A DNA stretch of 64,000 nucleotides, from contig JAUCBJ010008580.1 of the NCBI GenBank assembly GCA_032718475.1, positions 1 through 64,000 of the forward strand, given 5' to 3'. Source of the DNA: Nemertoderma westbladi. Its lineage: Eukaryota; Animalia; Xenacoelomorpha. Of this stretch, positions 21,795 through 64,000 are shown piece after piece (positions within the stretch are counted from its first letter, which is position 1; every line of letters starts with the position of its first letter). Both the position numbers and the translations under genes were made by a program. Under the pieces are notes generated by a model that was not told the DNA's origin, ran no database searches, and saw only the letters and a program-made list of their open reading frames with translations.

Positions 21795-21924
21795 GTTTGA
21801 TTGTACGATTGAATGCCTACTACTATAACGACAGTTAAAGCAAGTCTAGTAATTCAGTATCAACTGTTAGCCTAGTAATTAATTACCGATATCGTTACTT
21901 AATGTAACGCGATATATATATAAT

Positions 21925-35546: not shown

Positions 35547-36108
35547 TGTGACGGGATCCGAGAGGATCCCGGTTTATCCGGTGTCGCTTATGTACGCGTC
35601 AAGGGCCGCACCGTTCGGTGGAAAAGATATAGGAGTTTTGCTTGTTCCGACGTTCTCTAATAACACAGGATAGATAAATATCTGATAGCACGAAATGAGA
35701 TAACTGATGTACCGGTAGAATGTACTGAGTAAACTGGTGTGGCGATGACAGTCTAAATTGTCACCGTACTACCGTGACTGTAGTGACAGACTGAGATAAC
35801 TGAACAAATGATCACTGTACAGATAATATATACTGCACGGGTTGGCCTCATTGCATTACCCAGTCGGTGCCTTCCCCCCATTGGCTAATATCCCTGTTTG
35901 TCACCCTTTGCCCCCCTCTGAAGTGCTTCCCTTCGCCCTTGCTATTCTCTCTCTGTCAGGGGTGTAACCCCTGACCCCTATTGTGCGTTTCTCCTTCCCA
36001 CTTTATTGGGGTGACACGAGGTTGATATTGGTAATCAAACTCGTGTTCCCAATATTGCTTAACGGCTCATTTTATGGGGTTTGGTGAGGCGGAATTGATT
36101 CGCTAACA
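35547..36108. mobile_element. Solo LTR (562 bp) inserted in the Gypsy-B integrase
   Basis: TGTGACG...CTAACA termini; TSD TGATC (35542-35546, 36109-36113); removing it restores FNNDPSAHTVCNALEEWF...RTDRGPQY. Confidence 0.9.
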
Positions 36109-36856
36109 TGATCCATCAGCACACACGGTCTGTAATGCCTTAGAAGAATGGTTTTCCATTACAGGAAATCCTAATGTTTTGAGAACTGATCGCGGACCTC
36201 AATATAGGGCAGAGGAAACAAAAACCTTTCTACGCGAACATGATGTATCATGGGAACCTTCATCCCCTGGTTGCCCATCTAGTAATGGGCATGCGGAATC
36301 ATCCGTAAAACTAGTTAAAACCCTTCTTTGTAAAACCGGGGGTAAATTCCAGAGTTGTTCCTTCATGAAGGGCCTCTTGGAATTGCGAAACACACCGCGT
36401 GAAGATGGACTTTCATCAGCCCAACGCTTTCTAGGCAGAACACTTCGTACAGCCGCTCCAGTTGACCATTCTATTTTAATTAAACCCATCAATACAGACA
36501 CCATATTGGAAGCAGACCGAATTTATAAGGACAACTTAACCAAGCGAGACACTAACTACAACCTTACAGCTACAACATTAAAACCTTTTGAACAAGGAGA
36601 TTTAGTTGATGTTCAGAATAAAACAACCCATAGATGGGATCGACAAGGGATTGTTCATGAAACCAATGTTCCTCTCCGCACTTATACAGTTGCTTTCAAC
36701 AATGGGGCACATCTCATACGGAACAGACGATTTCTTCGCCCTTTGTCCAACTTTCAACCACCTCCGGGAACTCACCCAAGCACGCTACCAAATCCACCAC
36801 TACGACGAAGCACACGACTAAGATCCAATCAATATAAAGGTGAAGGGAACCCTTAA
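36109..36856 (+). CDS. Gypsy-B integrase C-terminal part
   Basis: TDRGPQY, SNGHAESSVK, LRNTP, RNRRFLRP. Confidence 0.9.
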
Positions 36857-37600
36857 GGGTCGGGGGCGTGTGATGTAATACCAGTCGAGGTTAATGAACT
36901 CATAACCTGACATGGGTGCCAGAAAATCATTATTACAATATTAACTGTAATTCTCAAGAATGATTATTTTCGCTCAGATTATTGACCTTCGGTTAATGTA
37001 TTATAAACATTAGGTGATGGGCTTATTGAGTTGGGATATTAGATAGGTATACCATATACTACTACTGTGTAGTTTATTGACCTATGTTTGATGTATTGTA
37101 AAACATCTGGTGACGGGTTAATTGAGTTGAGATATAGTTTATATCATTATCTTGGTGTAAAAAAGATTTATTGTTACCAACACCGATTGTGTTGGATTTA
37201 ATAATTTCAAAGATTAATATAGGTAACATTTATGTTTCTATAAATTATATTTTGAACTTACATATTATGTATCTTATATTGATACCACAACAGTATGTTT
37301 AGTATTGATCCAGTTCTTACACAAGATATGCGCGATTTCCCTGTACCAAAGAATCGAACAGACCTTAGATCCTTTATGGGATTAGCAAACCAATTGGGAG
37401 ATTTTGACCACAATTTAACAGCCATCCTAGAACCTCTACGTAGCTTAGACCGCAATCATTCCACCTTTACCTGGAACAGCATATCAACAAGCTTTCGATG
37501 CTGCGAAATGCCTTCTCTCTATGGATAAATTCCTCACCTAATATTCTCCAGACCGGCAAACACAAATCCACACAGACGCATCTCGAGAGGGGGGGCCTCG

Positions 37601-43200: not shown

Positions 43201-45280
43201 AGCGCGAGTCACTCCACTGTCCGTCCCAAGGGCTTAGATTTACTTCAGGTTCTTACTGCAGAGGTAGGGCTACTTTCACAACTGCGACTCGCTACTGTAA
43301 ACACACTTTAGTAGTAACATTCACCTATAAACGCACAAATTCCACACAACTGTCACAAATTGTACACATTCGGGCCATTTGTCCGTTAGTCAAGTGCCTT
43401 CCAGAATGCCACGTTATTATTATGTATCCCTGGATACTAGCAGTGCGCTATTTATTCCGTATGCTATTCAATGGGGCAAGCTTTCTATTATTCTTTTAAC
43501 TCGCTTCTAATTCTAGCGTGGTTGTTGCTATGGTGACATTATGGAAAGCTAGCAGTAGAATTAGGGTAATTCTCATGCATACAGATCTGGGATGCTATTT
43601 AATAGTAATTCTTTAATTGTCAATATTCCCCCTTATACATGATTTTATGAATTTTATCGGCTATTGACTATATATTGGAGATTCTCTCACGCTAATATAC
43701 TTAATAGGGTGAATCTCCGCTCCCATGATCTATTAATTAATGAAATTTTGGGAATGTTATAAATTGTATAAAATGACAATTTATCAAATTCATGAGAAGA
43801 TATGAATTTAAATTTATTCCCGTAAATTTTATTATTTAATATTAAAATAGACCAATTTTATCCAGACATGTCTGGGGACTAGGATCCTTAATTCTAGGAA
43901 ATTTGTCTTTTTAAGAGTATCGGTAAGTGCTACGATATCTTAATCGACTAGAATTCTAAAGGATCTGAATTTTAACAGATTTTGATTTATAGATTTTCTT
44001 GGTTTACAAACTCCTTAGAGTTTATTGGTCTGCATTTACTCTATTATAACATTTGTTTTAATAGATTTTTGTAAATATTAAATAGTTAATATTTAAGATG
44101 GGCACCGATTTATTCCAGAACTTGTCTGGGGACGTTAACCACTGATTCTAGAATTTTGTCTTTCAAGTATATCGGTGGGTGCCACGATATCTTAATCGAC
44201 TAGAATTACAGATGGTCAAAGGGTTTAACAGATTTATTTTGCGTTTCACGCTACTGTTAAAGGGACATCACACTACTATATGTATTATTTAATATATGGT
44301 ATGAGAGCAATATTGCAAGAAGCAATGTCAGTGAGAAGAGGCAAGTCGTTTCCAAGGTCTACCCAGAGCTTGGTTTAGCCGAGACACGAGGATCTGAACT
44401 TTGCATTCCTAATACTCTACTTACCAATAATACTTGAGTATAGTAGGAGCTTTATTGTACTTTAATAAGTACGGACATTTCATCTTACTGCAGTCACGTA
44501 TTTATAATATGATACGGACAGTAAGGAAAGAGAAAAGAATTATTTCTCGCCGTTGCACTAAATATATAATGTTAAGTAATTAATTAATAAACACGAGTAT
44601 ATATTGCACTAATTCTACTAAATAATCGCTAAAATAACATTCTACTAAATAAAATTAAAGAAAATGATTATAATAATAAAATTACGTAATAATACATACA
44701 TAAATATAAAAATAATAAAAATATATAAAATAATGTAGTCACACACCCACTCCAGACGCTGTTACGTTGGGGAGTCCCTAGATGTTTGTTGGATTAGGGA
44801 GGTGGTCGTGGGAAGAGTATCTTGCCTTCCATAGTTTCCGGATAGTTCTCGGTCTCTTTCCAGTAAACATAAACGACCAACTGGGCGATTGAGTTGTTGT
44901 GTTTCGAATAAAGTTCCAGGTTTCTTCTTCGTCCTGGAATAGTGACGATGGAAACATCGCTTCAAATACACGACGGCCTTAGAAAGCCGATTCCAGGAGC
45001 TATAGTGGTTTATTGCTCTCTGCAGGAGAGGTGAGAGCCCCTGCGAGACGTCTGGTGTTCCAGATTTCCAGTCTCTTTCTCTGATTTCCACAACAGATTT
45101 ATTTGTGGCGGGGAGTTTAGATCCACAGCGTCGTCCCCTGAAATGTGTAGTACAGACAGATCAATCATGGGTTTAAATAACATTGATTTACTCGTCCGGG
45201 TTTTAGGTTTGACTTTCTCCGCTCCCTTGGCTTGTCTAATCTCAGCCGTGGTGAGATGAGGAGGCCATTCATCCTCTTCT
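40209..45280 (-). mobile_element. Internally deleted, 5'-truncated copy of the BEL-1 family (BEL copy 3)
   Basis: 3' LTR 40209-41403 (type A-like), PPT, accessory-ORF remnants 41480-43034, spacer and pol remnant 44762-45280, collinear with 7757-15720 apart from three deletions. Confidence 0.93.
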
Positions 45281-48944: not shown

Positions 48945-50393
48945 CCCTATTACCACTGGGGTGTTTTGACCATTAGCACCACTGGGGGGGGGGGGGGGGG
49001 GGGGGGGCGATTCGGCCCACCCACTATATTTTTGTAGTCGTCTGATGAAATCCTACAAAAATTGGGCTGTTGGTGAAACAACTATAGATGAACACTACCA
49101 AATCTTAAAAAGTTAAAATTTCATAAGCAGGGTCTCATAATTTTGATGAAAAATAAAAGTAGTCCCAGGACAAAATTACAAAATTTTTCGTTTTATAAAA
49201 ACTAATAGTGTGGCAGTGTTGGCTAGATTTAGTAGGTTTTTCAAGACGCTGAATCGAATGTGATTATATTCCACTTCCAAAAATTGAAGTGGATGCTATT
49301 TTTCGTGCACCTAAGAAGTGGGCGTGGCACTTCAAATTTTGAAAAATTAGATATTCAGAAAATGCCCCTAATTTGTTTATTTCAACGCATCTTTATGGGT
49401 TTTCTGGCCGCTGAATCGATTGAAAGTAATATAGAAGCCTGAAGACTGAGTGGTTCGCCATTTTTGGTGCACCAAAATTAGGGCGTGGCACTTCAAATTT
49501 TGAAAAATACGAGATTCGGAAAATAAACCAAAATTGAAATTTTAACGAATTTATATAGGTTTTCCAGACCGCTGAATCGATTGAAAGTAATATAGAAGCC
49601 TGAAGACTTAGAAGTTAGCCATTTTTTGAAATCAAAACTTTAGTGTTTTTTCCGAATAAAGAAATTTTGAAAATTTGAAGTGCCACGCCCTAATTTTGGT
49701 GCACCGAAAATTACGTACACAAAGGACTTGAGGCTTGCTTGGGGTTCTATATTACTTTCAATCGATTCAGCGCTCCAGAACACCTAGAAAATTAATTTGA
49801 AATCAAAACTTTAGTGAATTTTCCGAATCTCGCATTTTTCAAAATTTGAAGTGCCACGCCCTAATTTTGGTGCACCAAAAATGGCGAACCACTAAGTCTT
49901 CAGGCTTCTATATTACTTTCAATCGATTCAGCGCTCCAGAAAACCTATAAAAATGCTTTTCAAATCAAAACTTTAGTGTATTTTCCGAATCTCGTATTTT
50001 TCAAATTTTGAAGTGCCACGCCCTAATTTTGGTGCTCCAAAAATGACGTACCACCTCACTTACATACGTGTATAGAGCATTAGAGTAATCCAAACCAATA
50101 AAAATAAATAAACATAGCCCAAACATAAATAATTACTAAATCACGAATGACTTTGTAAAATTCGAAAATTTCAAAAAATTTGGTGCTGGAGACCAAATTT
50201 TGAGGTGGCACCCACATCGAAAAGTAGAAATCCAATTGCAACGGCGTTTTTTGCAAAAGATGCGGCATTAAATTTGGCTAATTCTCACAAAAAATTGGGC
50301 CGGTACGTAATGTGGTTGCATAGTTACAGCAACTAAAACCTAGGAAGGGGCCGATACGCCCCCCCCCCCCCCCCCCCCCCAGTGGTAATAGGG
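48945..50393. mobile_element. Non-autonomous piggyBac-like element with internal fold-back repeats
   Basis: TTAA TSD (48941-48944, 50394-50397); 17-bp TIR CCCTATTACCACTGGGG; ~160-170-bp units at 49250-49620 inverted relative to 49630-50050. Confidence 0.88.
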
Positions 50394-50674
50394 TTAAAGG
50401 CCACCAATTATTCTACAAATCTTAACGCCTAAGAATATTTATTTTCACTTTCAAACCTTTTTAACTACAAGCGTTTGAAAAGTGTTTTATTGAGTCTATT
50501 TAATTACTATCTATTAGGGAGAAGGGGGGGGGGGGGGGGACTGGACGCAAAACCCCTTCTTGGCGAATTAATATCCCGCCTTGATGAATTATTTCACTAT
50601 AAGGTAGCATTTGTAGTTTAACTTTAACGTAAAAACTTTTGAAAATCCGACGTATTTTGATTAAGTTACAGTAA

Positions 50675-51239
50675 TGTAATATGCCTATTTATATTTGTAC
50701 ACATAAAACCCTTAGGTACTCTCGTGGCGTAGTGGTCAGATGGTTAAGGCGTTGGTTACATTACGTAGGTTATGAGTTCGAATCCCAGTCGGGAAATTTG
50801 TATTTTGGGGCAATTTATTTTCGTGTGGTGCTAATTGATAGGCCAATGAGAAGCGTACAGCGTAGCGAATAATGAGCCAGGCCAATCATAGGGCATAAAT
50901 TACCTTATTGCTCAAATGTGAGGCAGTGGAAAATTCTGTTAGGATTCCATGTCCCAGATTAGTGTAAGGGCTGGACTGCGTTGAACGATGAGCTGGGCCA
51001 ATCATAGGGCACGACGCACTTCATTGCTCAATTGTGAAGCTGTGGAAATTTCTGTTTAGTTTCCATGTGCAATTTCTAGTATATAAGGCCGGTTTGCCTT
51101 CGGTTATGACTTCTACCCCCTTCGCTTCCAACGTTACTCTATCAGTTTACTTTTGTAAAATTAGTTAATTCGGTTTCTTGTTGAAACTTGTTTGATAAAT
51201 CCTTTGTTAAAACTGTAAATATACTGCAATTTCCTGACA
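50675..51239 (+). repeat. Putative 5' LTR of BEL-2
   Basis: TGTAAT...CTGACA ends, CCAAT x3, TATATAAG near 51080, duplicated ~90-bp block (50873 and 50989), PBS-like TGGTCC at 51250. The partner LTR is outside the window, so the boundaries are unconfirmed. Confidence 0.55.
50719..50794 (+). pseudogene. tRNA-derived sequence
   Basis: A box TGGCGTAGTGG (50725) and B box GAGTTCGAATCCC (50774); no clean cloverleaf. Confidence 0.55.
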
Positions 51240-53760
51240 TGTTTTCCTTTGGTCCGACTTCGGGACAGCCGAACACCAGGGAGATGGCAGCCTAGACCGT
51301 TAGGCCATAAGCAACGCAGGGAAGGGATGTCCACAACACGCTAGCGCCCACATTGGATCGACCGCGCACCCCCTTTGCCCCCCTTCGAAATGCTCAACTT
51401 GCCATGCAGCGCCCGCTTTGTGAGAAAGGTAAGACTTTGTTCGACGCCCTTGCCCGCCGTAAGACCTATAGATCAGGGTAAGCGTGACACCGCACTGGAC
51501 GCCGCAAATTTAGGATCAAATAATTATATCCAGACACCCCCCCCCCTTCTTGTCAGTCCTACGAACCCCTGGGTTAACCTGTACTTCCTACAGGTGCGAA
51601 CTATTGCCATTCGTCAGTACGCGAGTACACATTAGGCACGGACAGCATATGTTCCATAATTTAGTGAGTCGTAGCACTGACTGTTTGGTACCGGTTCGCT
51701 TTGTAGAACGTACATTAGTACCCCCCCCCCCCCCTTGTCTGGAGTTAGCTATTTGATCAGGCAAGGAGTATTTCTGCTACCGGCACACTGCTTGGCCTAG
51801 GGAGGTTTATTAATATCCTACCGCGCCTTGCCACGTACTGATAGGTATTGCTGCTAACTACCGCAGCAACAAAGTTCTAGAATTAAATTAGTATACCAGA
51901 TCAGCTAACGTACGGTAGCGATTAACCCCTATTCTTATCTTACAACCAGAATCTGGTATTAGTGCCGATCACGGGTGTAGTTACTAACACTGTGGTTGCC
52001 CATTGGGTTGTGGATAGGAAGGAGAGAGCTTTGACGTCATTCGTGAGTATAAAGTTCTACAAACGCGACTAGTTTATTTTAGTAGCTAGCGCACGGTATC
52101 ATTTTAGTCAGAAAATCACTAAAACCTAGTAAAAGGAATTACCCGAAATTGTTTTATTTGTAACACACCCACACACACACGCCCTAAAACATATCGCCCT
52201 TAAAGTTCTACTAGCTATAGCGTACTATACATTACGTTAGGTGGAAATTATTTGTATTTGTACAATTAGGATCTGATTTGATTGCGGCAAGATAAGGAGT
52301 ATTTCACTTTCGTTATTAAACTGTTGTTTGTCTGGACAACGGTATTGTTACATTTAGGCCTGACCCTTTAGACTGATTTCGTACAGGGGGATCAGTTATT
52401 GTTACATTTAGGTACGACCCCTTTTCGACTGATTTAGGACTGTCAGTGTTGTTACGCTAGGTCTGTTAACCCACTAGCTCGTATATAACCCATATAAATC
52501 ACACCGCGGCAAGTTACTGTATTTAGGACTGTCAGTGATAGTTAGGATTCGCTGCGTGGGGATTGTTTTCCCGTGAGTTTGGTCTGTTACGGTAACTGTA
52601 CATCTGCCTCACCGGTTAGAGGACAGGTATCCTTCTGTCTAGTACGTAGGCATTAGACCCGCTCACGTACATAGAATAGATACAAGGCTCTGTTCCTCGC
52701 CAGTAGTCGTTTGTGTACTATATCTGTTTGTTTAGATATCCTGGACTGGGATTTGTTTTCAGATACTGTACAAGCCCGTATACATTACTAGAGTCTCATA
52801 GTAAGATACATCGTTACTAGGATCTGGTAAGCGGTATACTACTGGACCCTTACAGTAGGAAGTACTATATAAATTAGTTTATAGTATTATTTCGATTGTT
52901 AGCTATTGAAAGTAGGAGATATTAAAATTTAAGGTTAGTAAATTTAGTAATTTAGAACGTCCCCTGCTTCAGTAGGCTTTTAGGGTAGCTAGTACTTTCG
53001 TATTTAATCTTTGACTAGCTAACAGTTAGTTTGTAGCACTTTGTTTTACGCCGTGTGTGTGCGGTGTTACTTTTCGGTACTTGAAAAGGTACATAGGGTT
53101 TAAAGACCAATTTGTATCGGTACCTAGGAAGATTTTTCGTAAGCGTAGAAGTAAAACTCTCACCTTCGACCTTTTCAGGACTCAAGGACTCATTTCTGGA
53201 CCGCTTCGAGGATTAGACCGCTTTTCGCAAAGTTTGGGAGACAATAAATTCGTCCGCGCCGCCGAAAAACGGAAAGACCCACGTCCGGTTTGTATTTGGG
53301 AATTTGTACGACTGGAAGATCAAAGGAACGTAAGTTTTACGACTCGCGTCGTTTAAACTTAAGAAAGCACAGTAGTACTCAAAATTTGTGGGTTTCACTG
53401 TCTATTAGTAGTGTTGTTGGTACATATTTTCCCTTTAGACGTTGCTGTTTGGCCTATTGTTTTACTTGTTGATCTACATTTTGTTAACGTATATCGTTAT
53501 CTCACTTATTCGTACAAATTTAGCCGGTAGGCTAGATTACTACTTATTTTATTATATACCTTGTTAGTTTATTTGTACCGGTTAGGGTATATATATGATA
53601 TATATATATATCAAGGTAAGTTTGACATTTGTGCATTTCGACATTTTGACATTTCGACATTCTGACTTGTTGATTTATTTGTACCGGTTAGGTAAGTTTG
53701 ACACTTCAACATTCAGACACTTGACATTTTATTACCCGTACTTGACGTATATAATAAGAC

Positions 53761-56700
53761 ATGAGTGACACACCCCATTCGACGAGATACCCACCTACCG
53801 ACTATGACTCGTGCGACCCGGACAGATCGACAGTAGACGAACCTAGAAGGAGAACCCGAGATTCCACCGATGTCACACCGCTTGCGTCGCCGGTACCCCA
53901 AACGGAAATACCGGAAGCCGCAACGCGTGGCGACGGCAGAATCGAAGATTTCCTTACCGTCCCGCAGACTAGATCGCGGGAACCGGACATGGTAAGTTCG
54001 ACTGGGAGCCAGGAGAACGTTATTAGAAGTATAGGAGGACACATGGCCCAGATTACTCGGAACCTCGGAGAAGGTTTTCGCGTTTTACGCGAGTTAACCG
54101 CCCCGATGTCGAGATACGAGTTCTACACCTTACAGGTAAGGATAGAAAGTAGGGTACATGCCTCCGTAGATAAACTTAAAGGTTTGCACGAACTTGCAGA
54201 GTTGCGTGGCGACAACTTTACTCAGGTAAAGATAGTGGATAAATTGGTAAGTGCGAGAGAAAGCATTATCCAGTTTAAGTCGGTAATAAGCTTGGCTCAA
54301 CAGGAGCAGTTCGACCAACTGCTAGGTGAGTCAGTTTCGGACGCGTTGTTACAACCCGAAGAGGAAGAAGAACTCTACTGCCTGGACGGAAGGTTGGAAA
54401 CGCTGACCAATTTTCTTCGTAGATGCGGCGTACCGATCGACGAACCGGAAGTCGAACCGCGAGGGACGACGGAAGTTCTCACTACGGAAGGCTCGCGAGC
54501 CTACCAACATCCACCACTGGATAGATCGTTCGTTAGCGTACGGAGCGACGTTGGCAACGTTGGCGACGTTAGTAGAACAGCGTCTGGAATTACTCGACAA
54601 CAACAGGAGGTTGCACGCCGACAACAAGTCGCCGAGGAAGAAGCGCGACACCAGATGGCACAGATCGCCATCGAAGGAGAGAAACAACGTAGAGAAGACG
54701 AGGCAAAAATTGCACAACTCAAGGCGCAAGCTGAATTCGAAGCATCAGAAATGCGCAGATTGGAGGAAGACTTAGCGCGAGAAGCGGCCGCGGCGGCAGC
54801 AGCGGACGAGTTAGCACGGAAGAAAGCAGCATCAGACGCTCGTGCCAAGTTGGAGGCGCGGCAAATAAACGCTCGATTAGCTATACAGGAAGCGGAATTA
54901 GCGGCACAACAACAGGACGCAGATCGACGCGAAAGGGAGATGCAACTACAGTTCGAATTGAATCGTAGATCGCGCGAGACAGCGAACGCGCAAGCGGACC
55001 TCGAACTCGACGCGAGAGATAGATCTATGAGATCGCGGACTGGACACGACTTGTCTGCCCTGGATCGTATGGAAGCTCGATATCGCGGAATACAGAAGCG
55101 GATCGAGGAAGGAAGCGTGGGAGCGATAGATCGAGGAGAGGAGTTCGTCGAGGATTACTGTAAACGTTTTCCCCAAGTTATTCCTATGCTCAAACCCACG
55201 ACTCCGATAAAACCGGTCTTCGTTACGAAACCTAAGGAAATAACGCCAGTGCGTTCGACGCAAGGCAACAGGTTTGTTGTGACGGAAATACCGCAACCTA
55301 GGGCGACTTCATCGCCAATTTTAGCAGGTAACGTTACTAGTCCACCTACAGTAAGTCGTAGTCTACTTGTAGGAAGAGAGGAACCTGCGTTTATGACCAT
55401 TAAACAGGTGAGTAAACCATTACAAGTTAAACCTGTGACGTGCTGTGCAAATCCAGTTATTTACAGACCGACTACGAAACCCGACTATTTCACTCGACCG
55501 TTGACACAATGTTCGACGCAACCTACGACTTCGTGGAAGGCTTGCGAGCCTACCGAACTACGAAGGAGGATGGATGTGGGTAGTACTCACGGGATCGGAC
55601 AACGTATAGCGAGACCTACGACTTCGTGGAAGGCTTGCGAGCCTACCGAACGACGGAGAGCCGTAGATTCCGGACCACAACGGACGAGACCCAGGATAAT
55701 ACGCCGGACACGAACCCGCCAGCCACCTTATCCGGACGACAGCGATTCATCTAGTGACTCGGAGTCGACGGAACGGGAAATATTCCGTACTGGAGCGGCG
55801 GAAGATTGTAAACGGGAGGAACGATCGACGAATCCATACATCGACAATCCTCCACGAGAAACACCCCAACAGAAACCCACGTTGAAACCAGCGGAAACGA
55901 TCAGCGCTAAACAGTTCACCGAGATGACGGACAGAATAGCTCAACTCGAAGAACGACTCGAAGCGCAACCGTCGGATCGATCACGGACCAGCGTGGAATT
56001 GGAACAACCTAGACAACATCGACCACCGAGGAGAGAACAGGAGACTAGACGGACTCCGACACATCGAGAGGAAGATCCCGTTAATAATTCCTACCGACGA
56101 ACAACGCGCGGAAGGGAGCGACTGGACGACGCCACCGAACAAGGACGCGGACAGTTGGATTTAGTTAGCGAGATTGCGAAATTCGCGGCTAGACACGGAT
56201 TACCGGCACAGCAACCGCCGAAGTTCTCTGGCAACGCGAAACACTGGCGCACACTGGTAGACTACGTAGAGTCCCAGATCGCTAAGTGTGCTTTCACCTC
56301 GACGGAGAAGTTTAACTACTTGCTCCAAGTCCTGTCTGGTGAGCCGAAACGATTAGCGGAAACCTTTATAGGTGTTCCCGATGCCTTCGAGTTGGCGTAC
56401 GACCGTTTGTATTCGATTTACGGCGGTAATGTCGCCATGGCTAAATCCATCATAGAAGACCTCTGCAGAGGAGGCAACATTTCGAGACCGATCGATCTTT
56501 TACGACTCGCGGACGAAATAAAGAACGCTATAGGGACTTTACGGTCCATTGGGCAACTCGAGTACGCTAACGCACCGACGGTTCTCATTCGAATAATCGG
56601 TCGACTTCATCATCGACTACGACGAGAATGGCGACGCATCGAGTACCAGCGCGAAGAGGCCGGAGGGTTATTAAAACTCACCGATGTCTATCAACTTATT

Positions 56701-59700
56701 TCACGGGAGGCCGTGATCGAGACTCGATCGAACTATACCGATCACCATATCGCGGCGGAAGGGATAACTGTTTCTGCGCCGAATCGGACTAAACCATTTC
56801 CGACGAACGCGAAAGCCGTTACTTACGCCACCCCTACTGAGACTTCTAAAGTTCTGACGCCTATCGGCACCACGCAGCCACGACAACAGTTGCCGGCGGA
56901 CTTTGTGGGATGCTCATACTGCGAGCGGAACGGCAGAAACCATAGCGGACATAAACTACGTGCATGTCGCGCTTTTAAAGAGTTAGGGATCGAGGAGAGG
57001 AGACTCCAAATCCGATCTCTAGATTCCTGTTGGAGATGTATGAAGCCAGGACACGTCCGGAAGGATTGCCCGAGCGATGATACATGTTCTTTGTGTGGAC
57101 GTAACCATGACGCGTTGCTTCACACAACCAGTCATACTCCGACCCGACGCTTTCGACGAGAGCATCCAGATAAAGCGGCTAGATGCGACGCGCTTTATAA
57201 GGAGCGTGCGCCGCGCGAGATCCGTACCTTTTATACCGACTGTATGGATCAGTCAGGATCATCGGAAGAGGACGAGGAGGAAGACGACACTTTCTACGTG
57301 CATGCAGGTGAGGAACAACCATCGATAACGCTCCTCACACAGAACCAATTGAAAGGGTTTAGCGTGATTCCTATAAAGATTACCGGGACCCGAGGGAGCA
57401 AGCGTATATACGCCATCTTAGACTCTGCGTCATCGCATAGCTATGTCGACGAACAAGTAGCCGACGTAGTTACGGACTTGAGTCAAGGTAAGACTGCTCA
57501 GTATACTGTAAGCAGCATGCATGGTAAGAGAGCGATTCCTGTGACAAGAGTAAAACTAACTTTAGACACTCTTCTTTCCAAAGCGGAACACAGCAAGGAG
57601 GAGCGCTCATTACTTCCGGTAAGAAATTTGACCTTTGCAGCTACGAAGGACTTTAGTAACTTGCTCGGCCCTGTGCCAGAGCAATCTCCGGAAGATCGTA
57701 AGTATTTCCGACACCTTGGAATACCGGAATGTCCTGTCAATTATCGTTCCATTGCGATGTTAATTGGGACAGACCAGTTTAACTTACATCAGGTATGGGA
57801 GACACGCCCATCTGTTATTACAGCGGGCAACCCCTACGCATGTAGAACTCCCATAGGTTGGTATACTAGAGCACCAATACGTTCACTAGAGGTAAGTGAC
57901 CAGGAGGACGACGTTTTGAGTACGTGTAGTTTATTGACTAACACGATAGATAATTCTCCCTCACACTCCTGTGGTCCAATTGTACGGACGGCACTACGAC
58001 AGACTTGCGTCACTAACGCAGACGCCACCGATACTGACGTAACCGATCTGGACACGACCATACGGACCTCTGACTTACAACTACTTGCAGTAGACCAGGT
58101 TGTATTGACTACTGAAGACCTGAGGGTTGTTGCTGTGGATGACTCGATGAACGAGGATTTTGGAAGGCTTGCGAGCCTACCGAAAAATCCGAAGGTCATT
58201 GACCCCACCCACCAGGCTTCGACACCGGTCGTTGATCTTGGAAGGCTTGCGAGCCTACCGATAGATCAAGAAGTTGTCAAACCGCCGCACGACAATTCGA
58301 CGCCGACTAGTGACACCGGAAGGCTTGCGAGCCTACCAGACACATTGACACTAGCCACCGCAGCGGACGAAGACGTGGACGAGGACCATGGCGCAGTGCA
58401 AGCAGCGCTTGACCGACTGCTGACTGAACGGACCATACAATGGTTGGAACAGGACTCAGCAGAACCCGGTAGTTACGAGACCGCTATGTCAGAACAGGAA
58501 AAACGGTCATTAAATATTATGAGAGATACCATTCGCCAGACCGCGAATGGCCACTATGAGGTTGGTATGTTGTGGTGCAATGGACAACCTAAGCTCGTTA
58601 ACAATTACCCGCTTGCTTTGAGGCGACTCAAATCAATAAGGCAGCGATTGTTGCGAGACGAGACGGCCCATATGCAATACAATGCACAACTTCAGACGTA
58701 TCTCCAAAAGGGATACGCCATTAGGATGTTAAATCCTGAGGTAACTACAGACCAGACATATTACCTGCCACATCATTTTGTTCGACACCCGGACAAACCT
58801 GGCAAGGTGCGTGTAGTCAACGACTGCGCTGCACTTTACCAAGGGATGTCTATGAATAGCGAACTGATGGACGGGCCGAATATGAACAATTACCTCATGG
58901 GAGTCCTAATGCGTTTTAGACAACGCAAAGTGGCTTTCACCTGTGACGTAGAGGCCATGTTTCACCAGGTTAAGGCTTTGGAGCGGGACAGGGACAGTTT
59001 GAGGTTTCTTTGGTATCCGGACGGAAACTTACAACTTCCGCCAGAAACTTACCAAATGCAGGTAAGAGTATTTGGAGCCAGGGACAGCCCCAACTGCACC
59101 ATGTACGCATTGAAGCAGACAGCATTAGACAGACGAGACCAATTTGACCCAGAAGTAGTTCGGACCATGGAACGAGACTTCTACGTGGATGACGGCCTCA
59201 AGAGTTGTGACACCTTGGAGCGCGCTACAACCGTAGCACACCAACTCCAGGATTGTCTCGCTGAGGGCGGATTTCACCTGACGAAGTTCGCTTCCAACGA
59301 ACCCGAACTGGTGAACTCATTTGACCCGATGGACCGTAGCGGAGGTGACTTGGACTTAGACCTAGAACCTCTGCCGACGACCAAAGTACTAGGACTTAGT
59401 TGGGACCCTAACACCGACAATTTTAGGGTACGTGTAAGGTCCAACGACCAGACTAGACCTCTCACTAAGAGGACTTGCTTATCGACCATGAGTCGATTGT
59501 ATGACCCATTGTGTTTCATTAGTCCAGTGATCCTACATGCCAGGATCATACTCCGCAGCATTTGGCAAGCCGGACTGGAATGGGACGATCCCATCCCAGA
59601 AAAGTTAGCTGAGCGATGGAGGGACTGGGAAGCCCAACTGACGTTCCTACAAGACTATACCATACCAAGGGTATACTTTCCTTTGCAAACCACCTTTCCT

Positions 59701-62601
59701 GCCGATTTAGAGCTTCACAGCTTTAGTGACGCTAGCAAGGATGGATTGGGGGTTACTTTATACCTTAGACGACAAGTGACATCGGACAGCTACGATGTAT
59801 CTCTCGTTACTTCAAGGGCTAGAACAATGCCATTGAAGTATATGACTGTACCTCGTGGGGAGCTGCAAGCCGGGACGATATCCACCGATATTGTCAGTCT
59901 AGTTCAACGCGAGCTGGAGGCTAACTTGAAGGTCACATATTGGACGGATGCGACGTTGGTACTTTGGTACATAAACAACGAAACATTTGAGTTCAAGACT
60001 TTCGTAGCCAACAGACGGGCTGAAATACTAGACCGGTCGCTCAAACAAGATTGGCGTCACTGTCCAGGGAAGCTGAACCCAGCTGACATCGCGTCACGGG
60101 GAATGCAACCACTTGACTTTTGTAAACCGGACAATAAATCCTTTTGGTTTAGAGGACCCGATTTCCTACAGCGACCATCAGACGAATGGCCACCGTTATT
60201 CGACGCGACAACCAACACCATACCAGAGGGTGCCGAGATAAAACTCGACAAGGTTGTCAAGTCTAAAGCGAAAGCCAACGCCAAGGTCAAGAGGAAAAAG
60301 GGACGGACGAAATCTGATGACCTGGACGCCAGACCTGACATTACGCCAGACGTCTCGCCAGACACTCGACCAGACGCTTGTACGAATCCTTCGCCGGATG
60401 TTCCGCGGGAGATTTCACCAGACGTTTCGCCGGATTGTTCACCAGATTACTCGCCAGACTATTCACCAGAAGAGACACCAGATTGTTCTCCGGATTGTTC
60501 GCCAGATTGTTTGATGGAACTCTCGACAGAATGTCTACCGGACATCTCACCAGATTGTTCACCAGACATCTCGACCGACTGTCCACCAGACTTTGAATCA
60601 GACTTTCTGACAGAAGTTGCGCTAGACAGACTTTGGGACCGACGACCGGACATTTCGCCGGATGTTCCGCGCTATGTCTCACCAGACGTCTCACCAGACT
60701 GTTCACCAGACGCTTCACCAGACTGTCTACTAGATACTCCATTAGAAGACCCATTGGAGCGGACTTTTAGAGACGTACTAAATTTGACTTCTTTGGACGA
60801 CAAAGGAGTAGCCACAGGGATTACACTCCGCTCGAAGAAGGTACTTGACTTACCTACAGGTAAAGTGGTGACTAAGGTTAGGAAGCTTACAGGCTCACAG
60901 GAACACACTGACACTGTAGAGTTGAAACCATTACTGCCAGTCGACATATTAGGTGCGGACGGCAAAGGTAAGACCGTAGAGATTGACGTACTTGGGGACT
61001 CAGACAAACCTACCGGAAGGCCCGTGGGCCTACCAAGTCCAGACAAGTATCCACACTACGACTACACCTTACCCGATGACGTCACTAACACTTACGTAGA
61101 CAGGATAGTGAACCTAACTAGATCATGGACTGACGCGTGCCGCAAGTTAGCATGGCTCAAACGATTGAGACAATATGCCAGAGGCAAACGCGACTTTCCT
61201 AGAAGACTTACCTTAAAGGAAATTGAACACTGTGAAGTTGATATCATTCGACATTATCAATTGCGATATTTCGCACGAGAGTTCACAGCGATCAAACAAG
61301 GTAAACAGATTAAGTCTTCACCGATTTTGAGTTGGAGTCCGATTATTTACCGGGGCTTACTTTGTCACAAGTCCAGACTCCAAAACATCGACTTTGCACT
61401 TGACTTTAGGTATCCTATCATCATACCGCAACACCATGAGTTACAGCGCGCTATGATACTGGACGCACATGTACAACTCAAACACGTAGGTAGACACCAC
61501 TGTCTATCACACTTACGCTCGAGGTTTGTACTGATTAGACCTAGTAAGGCACTGAGTTCAGTAACACGGAACTGTATTATTTGTAAGAAGGTGCACGCGA
61601 GGATAGGACACCAAGAAATGAGTGAACTACCATTAGCTAGATTACAGGCATTTAGACCCCCTTTCACTGAGACAGGGATAGACTGTTTTGGACCCATAAT
61701 CGCGAAACGCGGAAGGGTACAGGTAAAACGTTGGGGATTGATCTTCACTTGCATGGCCAGCAGAGCTGTCCATATAGAGCGAGTGACAGACTTGTCCACC
61801 AATGCCTTTATCCTAGCCTTACGGCGATTTATCGCTAGACGTGGATTGGTCAAATCCATATACTGCGACCAAGGGACAAACTTTGTGGGTGCACGGAACG
61901 AGATAACCAGAGCTTTGAGAAAATTGGACCAAAACCAGATTTCCGAGGAACTACGTCCTCACCGTATTGTTTGGTTTTTCAATACTCCAGACAGTCCGTG
62001 GAGAGGCGGCGTTTGGGAAAGGCTGATTGGCTCAATAAAGACAGCTATGGCTAAAGTCGTACCGACGCAACACATCTTGACAGACGACCAACTGACGACG
62101 TTACTAATAGAAATCGAAGCAATCTTAAATACCAGACCGATCGCTTTGATCCCACACAATAACGACGTACAGTTTGCCTTGACACCAGCGCACCTGCTTA
62201 TGCAGGCGCCGACGACACTGTTGCCCATTTCGGTACCCGTTGATAGTGACGGATACGGCAACAAGGCTTGGAAAATCACTCAATTACTTGCAAATAAATT
62301 CTGGGAAATATGGCAGAAATATTATTTGCCCTCTATTTCGACCAGAACCTCTTGGTATATAAATACCCGGTGTTTAAAACGTGGTGACCATGTTTTATTG
62401 GCTGAAGCCAATCTGAGAAGACGGTTTTGGCTGACTGGAGTCATTTTGACCACGCACCCTACATCTGGTGTAGTGAGGACAGTTACTGTACGGACTATCG
62501 ACGGACGTACCGTAGATAGGCCTGTACAACGTCTCGTACTCCTCGAGGAGACTAGAAACGAGACGGGAGACTACAAATCTCCACCCAATATTAGTAAATA
62601 G
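53761..62601 (+). CDS. BEL-2 Gag-Pol polyprotein, 2946 aa, uninterrupted
   Basis: PPKFSGN; CWRCMKPGHVRKDC; CSLCGRNHDALLH; protease ILDSAS; RT CDVEAMFHQV and FYVDD; RNase H FSDAS and NPADIASRG; integrase HHCC, GIDCFGP, CDQGTNF, WERLIG. Confidence 0.97.
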   Translation: MSDTPHSTRYPPTDYDSCDPDRSTVDEPRRRTRDSTDVTPLASPVPQTEIPEAATRGDGRIEDFLTVPQTRSREPDMVSSTGSQENVIRSIGGHMAQITRNLGEGFRVLRELTAPMSRYEFYTLQVRIESRVHASVDKLKGLHELAELRGDNFTQVKIVDKLVSARESIIQFKSVISLAQQEQFDQLLGESVSDALLQPEEEEELYCLDGRLETLTNFLRRCGVPIDEPEVEPRGTTEVLTTEGSRAYQHPPLDRSFVSVRSDVGNVGDVSRTASGITRQQQEVARRQQVAEEEARHQMAQIAIEGEKQRREDEAKIAQLKAQAEFEASEMRRLEEDLAREAAAAAAADELARKKAASDARAKLEARQINARLAIQEAELAAQQQDADRREREMQLQFELNRRSRETANAQADLELDARDRSMRSRTGHDLSALDRMEARYRGIQKRIEEGSVGAIDRGEEFVEDYCKRFPQVIPMLKPTTPIKPVFVTKPKEITPVRSTQGNRFVVTEIPQPRATSSPILAGNVTSPPTVSRSLLVGREEPAFMTIKQVSKPLQVKPVTCCANPVIYRPTTKPDYFTRPLTQCSTQPTTSWKACEPTELRRRMDVGSTHGIGQRIARPTTSWKACEPTERRRAVDSGPQRTRPRIIRRTRTRQPPYPDDSDSSSDSESTEREIFRTGAAEDCKREERSTNPYIDNPPRETPQQKPTLKPAETISAKQFTEMTDRIAQLEERLEAQPSDRSRTSVELEQPRQHRPPRREQETRRTPTHREEDPVNNSYRRTTRGRERLDDATEQGRGQLDLVSEIAKFAARHGLPAQQPPKFSGNAKHWRTLVDYVESQIAKCAFTSTEKFNYLLQVLSGEPKRLAETFIGVPDAFELAYDRLYSIYGGNVAMAKSIIEDLCRGGNISRPIDLLRLADEIKNAIGTLRSIGQLEYANAPTVLIRIIGRLHHRLRREWRRIEYQREEAGGLLKLTDVYQLISREAVIETRSNYTDHHIAAEGITVSAPNRTKPFPTNAKAVTYATPTETSKVLTPIGTTQPRQQLPADFVGCSYCERNGRNHSGHKLRACRAFKELGIEERRLQIRSLDSCWRCMKPGHVRKDCPSDDTCSLCGRNHDALLHTTSHTPTRRFRREHPDKAARCDALYKERAPREIRTFYTDCMDQSGSSEEDEEEDDTFYVHAGEEQPSITLLTQNQLKGFSVIPIKITGTRGSKRIYAILDSASSHSYVDEQVADVVTDLSQGKTAQYTVSSMHGKRAIPVTRVKLTLDTLLSKAEHSKEERSLLPVRNLTFAATKDFSNLLGPVPEQSPEDRKYFRHLGIPECPVNYRSIAMLIGTDQFNLHQVWETRPSVITAGNPYACRTPIGWYTRAPIRSLEVSDQEDDVLSTCSLLTNTIDNSPSHSCGPIVRTALRQTCVTNADATDTDVTDLDTTIRTSDLQLLAVDQVVLTTEDLRVVAVDDSMNEDFGRLASLPKNPKVIDPTHQASTPVVDLGRLASLPIDQEVVKPPHDNSTPTSDTGRLASLPDTLTLATAADEDVDEDHGAVQAALDRLLTERTIQWLEQDSAEPGSYETAMSEQEKRSLNIMRDTIRQTANGHYEVGMLWCNGQPKLVNNYPLALRRLKSIRQRLLRDETAHMQYNAQLQTYLQKGYAIRMLNPEVTTDQTYYLPHHFVRHPDKPGKVRVVNDCAALYQGMSMNSELMDGPNMNNYLMGVLMRFRQRKVAFTCDVEAMFHQVKALERDRDSLRFLWYPDGNLQLPPETYQMQVRVFGARDSPNCTMYALKQTALDRRDQFDPEVVRTMERDFYVDDGLKSCDTLERATTVAHQLQDCLAEGGFHLTKFASNEPELVNSFDPMDRSGGDLDLDLEPLPTTKVLGLSWDPNTDNFRVRVRSNDQTRPLTKRTCLSTMSRLYDPLCFISPVILHARIILRSIWQAGLEWDDPIPEKLAERWRDWEAQLTFLQDYTIPRVYFPLQTTFPADLELHSFSDASKDGLGVTLYLRRQVTSDSYDVSLVTSRARTMPLKYMTVPRGELQAGTISTDIVSLVQRELEANLKVTYWTDATLVLWYINNETFEFKTFVANRRAEILDRSLKQDWRHCPGKLNPADIASRGMQPLDFCKPDNKSFWFRGPDFLQRPSDEWPPLFDATTNTIPEGAEIKLDKVVKSKAKANAKVKRKKGRTKSDDLDARPDITPDVSPDTRPDACTNPSPDVPREISPDVSPDCSPDYSPDYSPEETPDCSPDCSPDCLMELSTECLPDISPDCSPDISTDCPPDFESDFLTEVALDRLWDRRPDISPDVPRYVSPDVSPDCSPDASPDCLLDTPLEDPLERTFRDVLNLTSLDDKGVATGITLRSKKVLDLPTGKVVTKVRKLTGSQEHTDTVELKPLLPVDILGADGKGKTVEIDVLGDSDKPTGRPVGLPSPDKYPHYDYTLPDDVTNTYVDRIVNLTRSWTDACRKLAWLKRLRQYARGKRDFPRRLTLKEIEHCEVDIIRHYQLRYFAREFTAIKQGKQIKSSPILSWSPIIYRGLLCHKSRLQNIDFALDFRYPIIIPQHHELQRAMILDAHVQLKHVGRHHCLSHLRSRFVLIRPSKALSSVTRNCIICKKVHARIGHQEMSELPLARLQAFRPPFTETGIDCFGPIIAKRGRVQVKRWGLIFTCMASRAVHIERVTDLSTNAFILALRRFIARRGLVKSIYCDQGTNFVGARNEITRALRKLDQNQISEELRPHRIVWFFNTPDSPWRGGVWERLIGSIKTAMAKVVPTQHILTDDQLTTLLIEIEAILNTRPIALIPHNNDVQFALTPAHLLMQAPTTLLPISVPVDSDGYGNKAWKITQLLANKFWEIWQKYYLPSISTRTSWYINTRCLKRGDHVLLAEANLRRRFWLTGVILTTHPTSGVVRTVTVRTIDGRTVDRPVQRLVLLEETRNETGDYKSPPNISK
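60325..60730 (+). repeat. In-frame 12-bp coding minisatellite (SPDx repeats)
   Basis: TC(A/G)CC(A/G)GA(C/T) recurring at 12-bp period; protein SPDVSPDCSPDYSPDY. Confidence 0.9.
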
Positions 62602-63339
62602 ATGTGGGACCTTGGTTGGCCGCCACATAGACCTACTGTATTTTAGTTATTTGTATTTGTATTACTGTACGTGCATTTGTAATCCTCTTCACTGTAGATA
62701 GAGACAGCGGTGGAATTCCATTGTCTTTATACGTGAACATGGAGGGTAGTACCCTTATGTATCACATAGGAGCGGGATTGTGTGTACAGTAGGAATGGAA
62801 TTCCACTTGGAACCCACAAGTGAGACATTTTCAAAAATTATTAGACAAATCCATTTATTTGGATTTAAATTTAAGAAAAACGATTCTCCAGTGAAAGCAA
62901 ATTCTAGAATACAGCTAGAAAAAAAAAAAAATTAAAATTGGGGAGGACAAGAGCGGATGGAAGGCTTGCGAGCCTACCGATAAATTTTTTTTGGAAAAGA
63001 AAATCGGTCTTGTTCTACGTAGTCGTGTCTACTATTATTTTGACCAATTAATTCTCGACTGCACTATTTTTCTTGGAAAACGTAGTTTGGGAAATTAAAA
63101 GGTGAGTATTTTAGACTCGCGGCTAGTTTACCCGGAATTCGTTTTTTATCGGCACAATTTTGGATTAGGAGCCAGTGCGAAATTACGCGAACCCGAAATC
63201 ATTAGGCAAAATGGGTTGGGGTTTAGAGCAGAGTTGAGCCAAAAGCCGACAAACTCTGAAGTCACCTCACATCTAACCTCTATTTTGTGCTTCATCTAGT
63301 AGAAACGTAACGATATGTAACCACATATATTCGTATACA

Positions 63340-64000
63340 ATGGAGAAGATGTATAAAGAGTTACGTCAAGGGTTTACGCAAGAACAGGAGCACCAGGCGC
63401 CATTTAATCGTTATGGAGCTAAAAACTTTAGTGTGTTTGGAGTGGAGAGTATGGCTAGGAGTACAGCCAAGCTCGCTAAATCCAAGGCGGACCCGAATGT
63501 TACGCGACAGCGGTTGGACGCATACAACAAAAGAACGGAGGAATTACGCGCGGAATACAATGCGTTATATCCCTACGATGCGTTATGCGACGCTAGCGAC
63601 ATTTGCGAGGATCCAGACACCGAAATACGCCGATTGTATCATACGCTGCAATATTTGACGGTAAACGAACCTTTACCTGCAGCTAGAGACGAATTTGAAG
63701 GAATGCATCTTTATAGACGCGCTCGAGGAGCGGATCCAGAGACCAAGGATGCGTTTTCCGTATATAAACTGTTCTATAAATGCGGAGCGTGTATGCGCGA
63801 GCAAGACAACGCGATTCCTATGCGGTTGAACTCGGAGAACCCCGAGCCGATATTAGCGCGATGTTCACACCACCAAAGTCTACGTTATCAAGAAGGCGGA
63901 TACCCTTTGACAAACCCGTATCATTCGTTTAAGATGAGTGGACCAAACGCGGGTGAAATTGTTATTTACGAACCAAAATTAGTCGAACCAGACGTCTACA
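63340..64000 (+). CDS. BEL-2 accessory ORF, N-terminal 220 codons, open to the window end (absent from the ORF track)
   Basis: Manual translation MEKMYKELRQ...DPDTEIRRLYHTLQYLTVNEPLP...FEGMHLY...LFYKCGAC...RCSHH... has no stop and aligns with the BEL-1 accessory ORF. Confidence 0.85.
   Translation, partial: MEKMYKELRQGFTQEQEHQAPFNRYGAKNFSVFGVESMARSTAKLAKSKADPNVTRQRLDAYNKRTEELRAEYNALYPYDALCDASDICEDPDTEIRRLYHTLQYLTVNEPLPAARDEFEGMHLYRRARGADPETKDAFSVYKLFYKCGACMREQDNAIPMRLNSENPEPILARCSHHQSLRYQEGGYPLTNPYHSFKMSGPNAGEIVIYEPKLVEPDVY

What the first reader, a model, noticed from the sequence alone, without database searches (positions are those of the whole stretch)
54486..62980. Eight copies of a 20-nt hairpin spread through BEL-2, read in all three frames and in non-coding DNA, with a compensatory change
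Seen: GGAAGGCTTGCGAGCCTACC at 55535, 55628, 58162, 58240, 58318 and 62959; variant GGAAGGCTCGCGAGCCTACC at 54486; variant GGAAGGCCCGTGGGCCTACC at 61015. It translates as EGSRAY (54486), WKACEPT (55535, 55628) and GRLASLP/GRPVGLP (58162-58318, 61015), and is non-coding at 62959, so the constraint is on the nucleic acid. It folds as GG-A-AGGCU-(YGYG)-AGCCU-A-CC; the 61015 copy replaces a U-A pair with C-G. All copies have the same orientation and lie outside the recognisable catalytic cores. Inference: a multivalent cis RNA element (export, localisation or packaging), possibly bound by the accessory protein, analogous to Rev/RRE or to Egalitarian binding localisation stem-loops. I found no equivalent motif by eye in BEL-1.
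Basis: partly seen in the sequence, partly recalled or inferred. Interest (0 to 1): 0.87.

Follow-up and report, generated by a model that had tools for sequence, protein, structure and literature searches.

The report
Repeated RNA hairpin tags in retrotransposon
A BEL/Pao jumping gene carries eight near-identical 20-letter fold-back sequences, seven written on top of its protein-coding sequence, plus an unusual excess of splice-donor signals; the repeats likely fold as RNA hairpins that tag the unspliced RNA for a protein that would get it out of the nucleus, as Rev does for HIV.

Summary
All eight copies lie at the stated coordinates, on one strand, in three reading frames plus non-coding DNA. 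Shuffles give none, and no ninth copy exists in the 64 kb. The seven coding copies sit in non-conserved linkers of an uninterrupted 2,946-aa BEL/Pao gag-pol ORF. In the 78-nt triplet the core is 20/20 identical while the flanks share 17-27 of 58 bases, so the constraint is on the nucleic acid.

New here: the splice-donor motif AG|GTRAG is tenfold enriched on the sense strand (12 vs 1.2). One donor position is shared with BEL-1, and an intron from the leader donors to an acceptor before the accessory ORF would remove all eight hairpins.

Best reading (0.37): a distributed, Rev/RRE-like tag on unspliced RNA, probably read by the accessory protein. Main rival (0.27): multi-site Gag packaging signals.

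Limits: no genome, no RNA data and no relative above about 50% identity, so genome-wide confinement and cross-family covariation are untested. Covariation among the copies is not above shuffle.

The parts
54486..54505 (+). Hairpin copy 1 (loop CGCG; flanking -1/+21 = C/A), Gag N-terminal region, aa ~243
55535..55554 (+). Hairpin copy 2 (loop UGCG; T/G flank), first unit of a 93-nt duplication in Gag
55628..55647 (+). Hairpin copy 3 (loop UGCG; T/G flank), second unit of the 93-nt duplication
58162..58181 (+). Hairpin copy 4 (UGCG; T/G flank), first of three 78-nt-spaced units in the expanded protease-RT linker; predicted longer lower stem
58240..58259 (+). Hairpin copy 5 (UGCG; T/G flank), second 78-nt unit
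58318..58337 (+). Hairpin copy 6 (UGCG; C/A flank), third 78-nt unit
61015..61034 (+). Hairpin copy 7 (loop CGUG; U-A to C-G stem change; C/A flank), in the expanded RNase H-integrase linker
62959..62978 (+). Hairpin copy 8 (UGCG; T/G flank), non-coding, between pol and the accessory ORF
53761..62601 (+). Uninterrupted BEL/Pao gag-pol ORF, 2,946 aa from the first ATG (DUF1759, three Cys-His knuckles, protease, RT, Peptidase_A17/RNase H region, integrase, DUF5641)
63340..64000 (+). Accessory ORF, first 220 aa only (runs off the window); has a CxxC...CxxH motif; weakly similar to the BEL-1 post-pol ORF; no outside homologue
53616..53697 (+). Two perfect AG|GTAAGT splice-donor motifs (53616, 53692) just before the gag ATG
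57892..57897 (+). Phase-0 AG|GTAAGT donor motif just after the protease; BEL-1 has a phase-0 AG|GTGAGT at the corresponding place (17544, - strand)
51429..63107 (+). Span of the 12 sense-strand AG|GTRAG donor motifs (51429, 53616, 53692, 54136, 54326, 55408, 57308, 57488, 57892, 59062, 60968, 63102)
63280..63302 (+). Candidate splice acceptor (last intron base 63299 or 63302; 94th-99th percentile for pyrimidine content among 445 YAG sites), 38-41 nt before the accessory ATG
50800..51255 (+). Candidate 5' LTR end and primer-binding site (CCAAT at 50843, 50882, 50998; TATA at 51080; CA then TGGTCC at 51250). Inferred only, since no 3' LTR lies in the window

Best explanation
The eight repeats are a nucleotide-level signal written into an intact BEL/Pao gag-pol element, and they likely fold as short RNA hairpins that tag the unspliced transcript for a sequence-specific protein, most likely the element's own accessory protein, which would let that transcript escape splicing and nuclear retention. 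Shown: the copies, their strand and positions, their conservation against decaying flanks, the excess of splice-donor motifs, and the fact that an intron from the leader donors to the acceptor before the accessory ORF would contain all eight. Inferred: that this splicing happens and makes the accessory mRNA; that the accessory protein (or a host adaptor) binds the invariant stem with its A.A mismatch at several sites along the 9.6-kb intron; and that this drives export of full-length RNA for Gag-Pol translation and packaging. It would work like Rev/RRE or CERV, but with the response element split into dispersed 20-nt units.
For: (1) The constraint is on nucleotides. The motif is read in three frames and in non-coding DNA. 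In the 78-nt triplet the core is 20/20 against flanks of 27, 17 and 23 of 58 (Fisher 7e-6 for the first pair). A synonymous-codon shuffle keeps 0.04 of 7 stems on average. (2) All 7 coding copies lie where at most 5 of 157 homologues align; the protease-RT and RNase H-integrase linkers are 587 and 652 aa against medians of 412 (n=34) and 386 (n=63). (3) The 14 stem letters and the A.A mismatch never vary while the loop takes three forms. That suggests the stem is read, as for Rev-type or NXF1-type sites (my knowledge), rather than the loop. (4) All loop changes are C/U opposite G on the + strand, and all three variants form a 14-bp duplex on + but only one does on -, which points to the sense RNA. 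(5) AG|GTRAG occurs 12 times on the sense strand against 1.16 expected (0 of 200), with 3 on the antisense strand. In the ORF it is 8 against 1.02 (0 of 1000 synonymous shuffles), rank 1 of 2,519 comparable 7-mers. Such motifs retain unspliced mRNA in the nucleus in human cells (PMC4380460, abstract). (6) Introns from donors 53616, 53692, 54136 or 54326 to acceptor 63299 remove 8 of 8 copies, and a post-protease donor is shared with BEL-1. [quoted passage not shown] The accessory ORFs here carry CxxC motifs, and BEL-1's ends in a basic tail.
Against: There are no RNA data, so splicing and folding are predictions. BEL-1 has a related accessory ORF (14 of 28 identical, pairwise E 1e-6) but no repeated hairpin and no significant donor excess (4 vs 1.82, 26 of 200). 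Only 220 aa of the accessory protein are visible, with no homologue, family or usable model (pLDDT 38). Covariation among copies does not exceed shuffles. Longer flanking stems are weak and equal on both strands (Stouffer z -1.6 on +, -1.3 on -), and 6 of 8 copies fold more stably on the - strand with 30-nt flanks. In 220-420-nt context 4 of 8 hairpins (55535, 55628, 58240, 58318) are predicted to be lost at the widest span. Introns from the later donors (57308, 57892) leave 3 of 8 copies in the spliced RNA. Hairpin-to-donor proximity is p 0.02 overall but 0.085 within linkers.
Confidence: 0.37

Rival explanations
1. Multiple dispersed packaging signals: Gag, through its zinc knuckles, binds the G-exposing loop of each hairpin, selecting unspliced RNA and compacting a genome of more than 13 kb during particle assembly.
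For: Six of 8 loops are UGCG, the loop that Rous sarcoma virus NC binds in its psi stem-loop C (PMC5035970, passages; bioRxiv 2023.11.30.569461, passages). Loop G10 and G12 are invariant. Gag has three CxxC knuckles, one matching zf-CCHC above cut-off. Copies are spaced at most 2.7 kb apart along the coding region. Dispersed packaging signals are established in ssRNA viruses and HBV (PMC6281560, passages). Lying inside the putative intron fits this reading equally well.
Against: Dispersed packaging signals vary around a shared recognition motif (PMC6281560), whereas here the stem is invariant and the loop varies. There is no copy in the 2.5-kb leader, where retroviral psi lies (PMC5035971, passages). 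In the RSV study the UGCG-to-GAGA change did not reduce specific Gag binding. BEL-1 has none.
Confidence: 0.27
2. RNA-RNA linkers: each copy is self-complementary and zips two genomic RNAs together (or folds distant parts of one RNA) at several points, like a multiplied retroviral dimer-initiation palindrome.
For: All three sequence variants form a self-duplex with 14 contiguous pairs on the + strand (-30.7 to -34.9 kcal/mol), against a -7.6 to -9.6 hairpin. On the - strand, 7 of 8 copies have C.A mismatches. The YGYG loop is what self-complementarity with G.U allows. Hairpin probability falls to near zero for 4 of 8 copies once a neighbouring copy is included in the fold, which I read as inter-copy pairing.
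Against: Any hairpin stem is self-complementary, so most of the duplex energy is automatic. Only two loop substitutions bear on the point, both transitions. It does not explain the invariant A.A mismatch.
Confidence: 0.12
3. A DNA-level site: an imperfect palindrome bound by a dimeric host transcription factor or by an element-encoded anti-silencing protein (VANC-like; recalled, not from a call).
For: A palindrome with a 4-nt spacer and a symmetric change in 61015 also fits a two-fold DNA site. The half-site word GTAGGC/GCCTAC is over-represented in the window (37 vs 16.7) and occurs 9 times on the sense strand of the BEL-1 leader against 0.9 expected. Folding tests do not separate the strands.
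Against: All copies have one orientation, there is none in the candidate LTR or leader, loop changes are limited to C/U opposite G, and -1/+21 alternate between T/G and C/A (Fisher 0.018 for 8 copies; weaker once duplicates are merged), which has no reason in duplex DNA.
Confidence: 0.12
4. No function: a hairpin that stalls reverse transcriptase is copied about within the element by template switching and kept identical by conversion, surviving only in linkers that tolerate insertions.
For: All coding copies are in expanded linkers. The motif has no stop in any sense frame. Distant copies 58162, 58240 and 62959 share 27 of 28 bases, so copies moved as units. There are only about five independent sites, and an antisense copy would hit a stop in 1 of 3 frames, so orientation alone is weak evidence.
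Against: The core stays exact while adjoining tandem-repeat flanks fall to 29-47%. The 61015 copy changed three amino acids yet kept the pairing. There is no consistent target-site duplication (1 of 8). Direct repeats are normally deleted during reverse transcription (my knowledge).
Confidence: 0.1

Closest known systems
Cer1 CERV (C. elegans Ty3/gypsy LTR retrotransposon; PMC10309623, abstract, passages and section 15 read)
   Same: [quoted passage not shown]
   Different: Different superfamily. No sequence link was found (accessory fragment has no homologue). The terms cis-acting, RRE, stem-loop and response element do not occur in that paper's text, whereas here a candidate element is visible. 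Function here is untested.
HIV-1 Rev/RRE, and MPMV CTE, IAP RTE, MusD MTE export elements (PMC3856414 and PMC12786077, passages read)
   Same: A structured cis element on intron-retaining RNA of a reverse-transcribing element.
   Different: Those are single, larger structured regions. Here there are eight 20-nt units over 8.5 kb, seven inside coding sequence. No Rfam match at E up to 1.
Multiple dispersed packaging signals of ssRNA viruses and HBV (PMC6281560, passages read)
   Same: Many small stem-loops spread along the genome, overlapping coding sequence.
   Different: Those vary around a shared motif. Here the stem is invariant and the loop varies, and the host is an LTR retrotransposon.
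Rous sarcoma virus micro-psi stem-loop C, UGCG tetraloop bound by NC (PMC5035970, passages read)
   Same: The same tetraloop sequence in 6 of 8 copies, in an element with zinc-knuckle Gag.
   Different: That is one copy within an 82-nt leader element. Here there is none in the leader, and 2 of 8 loops differ.

Membership tests
BEL/Pao LTR retrotransposon (carrier element) | Gag-Pol with DUF1759, Peptidase_A17, integrase and DUF5641 in protease-RT-RNase H-integrase order | tested here: met
   Pfam E 4.5e-9, 1.4e-39, 4.9e-4 (below cut-off) and 1.6e-17; landmark order
BEL/Pao LTR retrotransposon (carrier element) | Three Cys-His knuckles in Gag | tested here: met
   CxxC at aa 1051, 1090, 1109; zf-CCHC above cut-off for one
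BEL/Pao LTR retrotransposon (carrier element) | Paired LTRs with target-site duplication | not testable with these tools
   The 3' end lies beyond the window and no genome is held
Rev/RRE- or CERV-type export system | Cis element lies in the intron that separates unspliced from spliced RNA | tested here: inconclusive
   8 of 8 copies for donors up to 54326, 7 of 8 for 55408, 5 of 8 for 57308 and 57892; splicing itself is only predicted
Rev/RRE- or CERV-type export system | Accessory protein made from a spliced mRNA | tested here: inconclusive
   Separate ORF with a candidate acceptor 38-41 nt before its ATG; no RNA data
Rev/RRE- or CERV-type export system | Accessory protein has an RNA-binding motif and a nuclear export signal | tested here: inconclusive
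   One CxxC, no basic run and no NES-like pattern in the 220 visible aa; the BEL-1 counterpart has four CxxC motifs and a basic tail
Rev/RRE- or CERV-type export system | Protein binds the element and export depends on it | not testable with these tools
   Needs experiment
Dispersed packaging signals | Many stem-loops spread along the genome | tested here: met
   8 copies, gaps of 78-2,697 nt
Dispersed packaging signals | Shared recognition motif on otherwise variable sequence | tested here: not met
   14 stem letters are invariant and the loop has three forms
Dispersed packaging signals | Capsid or NC protein binds the sites | not testable with these tools
   Needs experiment
Any curated Rfam family (histone stem-loop, IRE, SECIS, retroviral elements) | Covariance-model match | tested here: not met
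   0 matches at E up to 1 in 50000-64000
Independent micro-insertion or MITE | Target-site duplications and copies outside the element in both orientations | tested here: not met
   1 of 8 with an abutting 5-nt direct repeat; no copy in the other ~51 kb; genome-wide not testable

The most novel reading that the evidence does not exclude
BEL-2 is a BEL/Pao element with a complex-retrovirus-style post-transcriptional circuit: a spliced accessory zinc-finger protein of no known family reads a response element that is split into eight 20-nt hairpins written into coding linkers, overriding a dozen strong splice donors to export the full-length RNA. It would be a Rev/RRE analogue in this superfamily, and a minimal 20-nt protein-RNA export module.
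Probability: 0.28. Interest if true: 0.85.

Novelty: new variant of a known kind. Interest (0 to 1): 0.62.

Why it matters
How LTR retrotransposons with one long ORF and splice sites export and select their unspliced RNA is largely open. I found no description for BEL/Pao in the paper searches, and the one accessory export protein I read about, CERV, has no cis element named in its paper. Here the candidate element is a 20-nt hairpin with natural variants, and both candidate readers (Gag NC and the accessory protein) are encoded beside it. That makes export versus packaging versus dimerisation testable with short RNAs and a reporter. Unchecked notes from this scan describe dispersed hairpins in other large LTR elements, so this may be a recurring, undescribed design.

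Tried and rejected
Genome-wide test: no genome is held, and no sequencing-run data were obtained, so expression, splicing and genome-wide distribution stay open.

Motif scans of public collections gave 4 viral, 37 prokaryote-genome and 2 metagenome loci (the third used a stricter pattern). Each has a single match, and none of the 43 encodes a BEL protein. I treat them as chance.

Relatives: protein searches gave only distant BEL elements (best 49.8% over the 305-aa RT core). Motif-derived peptides occur in 0 of 157 proteins and in 1 of 255 with a looser pattern, as a single match. No related locus was found in viral contigs.

The BEL/Pao nucleotide supplement of PMC3118150 could not be read (50 characters held). 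The blank search there says nothing, and that file could bear on whether relatives carry the motif.

Accessory protein: no homologue among 725 candidates of 386-2000 aa, atlas scores below 0.8, no Pfam family, single-sequence model at pLDDT 38, so no fold search was run.

Extended lower stems: the flank-swap test gave p 0.34, 0.03, 0.03, 0.03 and 0.005 for 15, 20, 25, 30 and 40 nt, but duplicated copies are not independent and the shuffle test was not significant. Kept as suggestive only.

Rejected: protein-level constraint (three frames); any Rfam family; tRNA origin (none found); insertion with target-site duplication.
Full report
1. The observation. A 20-nt word occurs six times exactly (55535, 55628, 58162, 58240, 58318, 62959), once with one change (54486) and once with four (61015), all on the + strand. 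Shuffles give none (0.00 in 100). A covariance model of the eight copies finds nothing else in 64 kb. The predicted fold is a 5-bp upper stem, an A.A mismatch, two G-C pairs and a four-base loop (UGCG x6, CGCG, CGUG); z is -1.8 to -2.6 for the four 22-mers folded. Fourteen stem letters, both mismatch As and loop G10 and G12 never vary. Positions -1/+21 are T/G in five copies and C/A in three (Fisher 0.018). U.G and C.A are isosteric wobbles (my knowledge), but two ancestral variants would give the same pattern. The one compensatory change is real but statistically unremarkable.

2. The carrier. The copies lie in an element with an uninterrupted 2,946-aa ORF (53761-62601) bearing BEL/Pao domains and three Cys-His knuckles. 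A second ORF starts at 63340 and leaves the window. A candidate LTR end and primer site lie near 51250, giving a 2.5-kb leader, but no partner LTR is in the window. The host is probably an animal; the named homologues are from fish, amphibians, corals, molluscs, a tunicate and arthropods. The best outside relative is 49.8% identical over the RT core, and BEL-1 is 46%. All seven coding copies lie where at most 5 of 157 homologues align, and two of these linkers are 175 and 266 aa longer than the median.

3. Selection on the nucleotides. The 93-nt pair and the 78-nt triplet are local duplications, so there are about five independent sites. In the triplet the flanks share 27, 17 and 23 of 58 bases (background 25%) while the cores are 20/20. 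Synonymous shuffling of the ORF keeps 0.04 of 7 stems on average. There is no consistent target-site duplication (1 of 8). There is no copy elsewhere in the window and no equivalent repeat in BEL-1. Public collections give only single matches, 43 loci in all, none in a BEL context. Either purifying selection or continual conversion keeps the core; the 61015 copy, which changed three amino acids and kept pairing, favours selection.

4. Which strand and which form. Flanking stems are suggestive only. Cognate flanks beat swapped ones at 20-40 nt (p 0.03-0.005, copies not independent; p 0.34 at 15 nt). Shuffled-flank controls give z -1.6 on + and -1.3 on -, and six copies fold better on the - strand with 30-nt flanks. 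The core is more telling: loop changes are C/U opposite G on +, and all three variants form a 14-bp self-duplex on + but only one does on -. This favours the sense RNA and leaves a dimer role open.

5. A second signal. The donor motif AG|GTRAG, chosen before counting, occurs 12 times on the sense strand against 1.16 expected (0 of 200), and 3 times on the antisense strand. In the ORF it is 8 against 1.02 (0 of 1000) and first among 2,519 comparable words. The shorter GTRAGT alone is not strand-biased (14 vs 11). Two perfect donors lie just before the gag ATG. A candidate acceptor (63299/63302, 94th-99th percentile of 445 sites) lies 38-41 nt before the accessory ATG, with a two-codon upstream frame between them. 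Introns from the four donors at 53616-54326 remove 8 of 8 hairpins; later donors remove 7 or 5. A phase-0 donor after the protease is shared with BEL-1. BEL-1 has no significant donor excess (4 vs 1.82) and no hairpins, so the two signals go together in this pair of elements, which is only two data points.

6. Mechanism. A 12-kb transcript with a dozen consensus donors must stay unspliced to make Gag-Pol and be packaged. Unused donor motifs retain RNA in human nuclei (PMC4380460, abstract only). Retroviruses solve this with Rev-type proteins or CTE-type elements (PMC3856414, passages). The LTR retrotransposon Cer1 uses CERV, a spliced post-pol protein with an essential Cys loop (PMC10309623, abstract, passages and section 15). 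I therefore favour a distributed tag on the unspliced RNA, read through its invariant stem, most likely by the accessory protein (0.37). Packaging by Gag is close behind (0.27): UGCG is the loop that RSV NC binds (PMC5035970, passages; bioRxiv 2023.11.30.569461, passages), and dispersed signals are known in RNA viruses (PMC6281560, passages). Against it, the stem rather than the loop is fixed, there is no copy in the leader, and in the RSV study the loop was dispensable for Gag specificity. RNA dimer links (0.12), a DNA site (0.12) and neutral copying (0.10) remain. The RNA-level readings together hold about 0.75-0.8. Against my reading: BEL-1 has a related accessory ORF without hairpins, and the visible accessory fragment has no homologue, family, basic run or usable model.

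7. Comparison and novelty. There is no Rfam match. It cannot be filed as an RRE, a CTE or a packaging-signal system: binding and function are untested, and the variable-stem feature of dispersed packaging signals is not met. Paper searches found no description of repeated hairpins or of such an accessory system in BEL/Pao elements. One search gave 0 papers; one search gave 1, unrelated by title and abstract; one search listed 2 of 3, of which one was read in passages and concerns gypsy-group small ORFs; two searches gave listings, of which PMC3118150, PMC3856414 and PMC5035971 were read in passages. PMC12786077 was read in passages. The library lacks most subscription papers, and the BEL/Pao nucleotide supplement of PMC3118150 could not be read. 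Three unchecked notes from this scan report dispersed hairpins in other LTR elements and one reports a BEL/Pao element with accessory genes; these are leads, not support.

8. Verdict. The feature is real, non-random and specific to the element within the window, and most likely an RNA cis signal. It is a new variant of a known kind, interest 0.62. The main gaps are the missing genome, RNA data and close relatives.

Noticed in passing
window 51429-63107 (+): Twelve AG|GTRAG splice-donor motifs on the BEL-2 sense strand, about tenfold over expectation and the top-ranked of 2,519 comparable 7-mers in the ORF under synonymous shuffling.
   Followed up: yes
window 57892 (+) and 17544 (-): Both BEL elements have a phase-0 AG|GTRAGT donor shortly after the protease GWY motif; 0 of 36 homologues show the matching peptide. 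In BEL-2 the base after acceptor 63299 begins a stop codon in that phase, so a spliced Gag-protease mRNA like that of copia (recalled) is possible.
   Followed up: partly
window 7836-12088 (-): BEL-1 has about 4.2 kb of post-pol coding sequence in four stop-to-stop pieces, with no Pfam family, four CxxC motifs (three clustered like zinc knuckles) and a basic C-terminal tail; it is weakly similar to the BEL-2 accessory ORF.
   Followed up: partly
window 21801-23770 (-): Nine GTAGGC words on the sense strand of the BEL-1 leader against 0.9 expected, none on the other strand; the BEL-2 leader has 3 against 0.84. The word is the reverse complement of the hairpin's 3' arm.
   Followed up: partly
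window 60340-60750 (+): A degenerate 12-nt tandem repeat encoding SPD-C/V units in the RNase H-integrase linker, after a lysine-rich stretch at aa ~2169-2186.
   Followed up: no
window 41838-45280: A second BEL-1 fragment, 88-93% identical to 10729-13968 and 15367-15720.
   Followed up: no
window 31111-37292 (+): A gypsy-type element with a 425-nt LTR pair at 99% identity (31111-31535, 36868-37292).
   Followed up: no
window 3999-5158, 23771-24919, 40209-41403: A repeat of about 1.2 kb in three copies (98% and 80% identical) with a weaker fourth at 6536-7205; one copy abuts the BEL-1 leader.
   Followed up: no
window 50715-50792 (+): A tRNA-like stretch by eye just upstream of the candidate LTR; ARAGORN finds no tRNA, so it may be a SINE head.
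   Followed up: no
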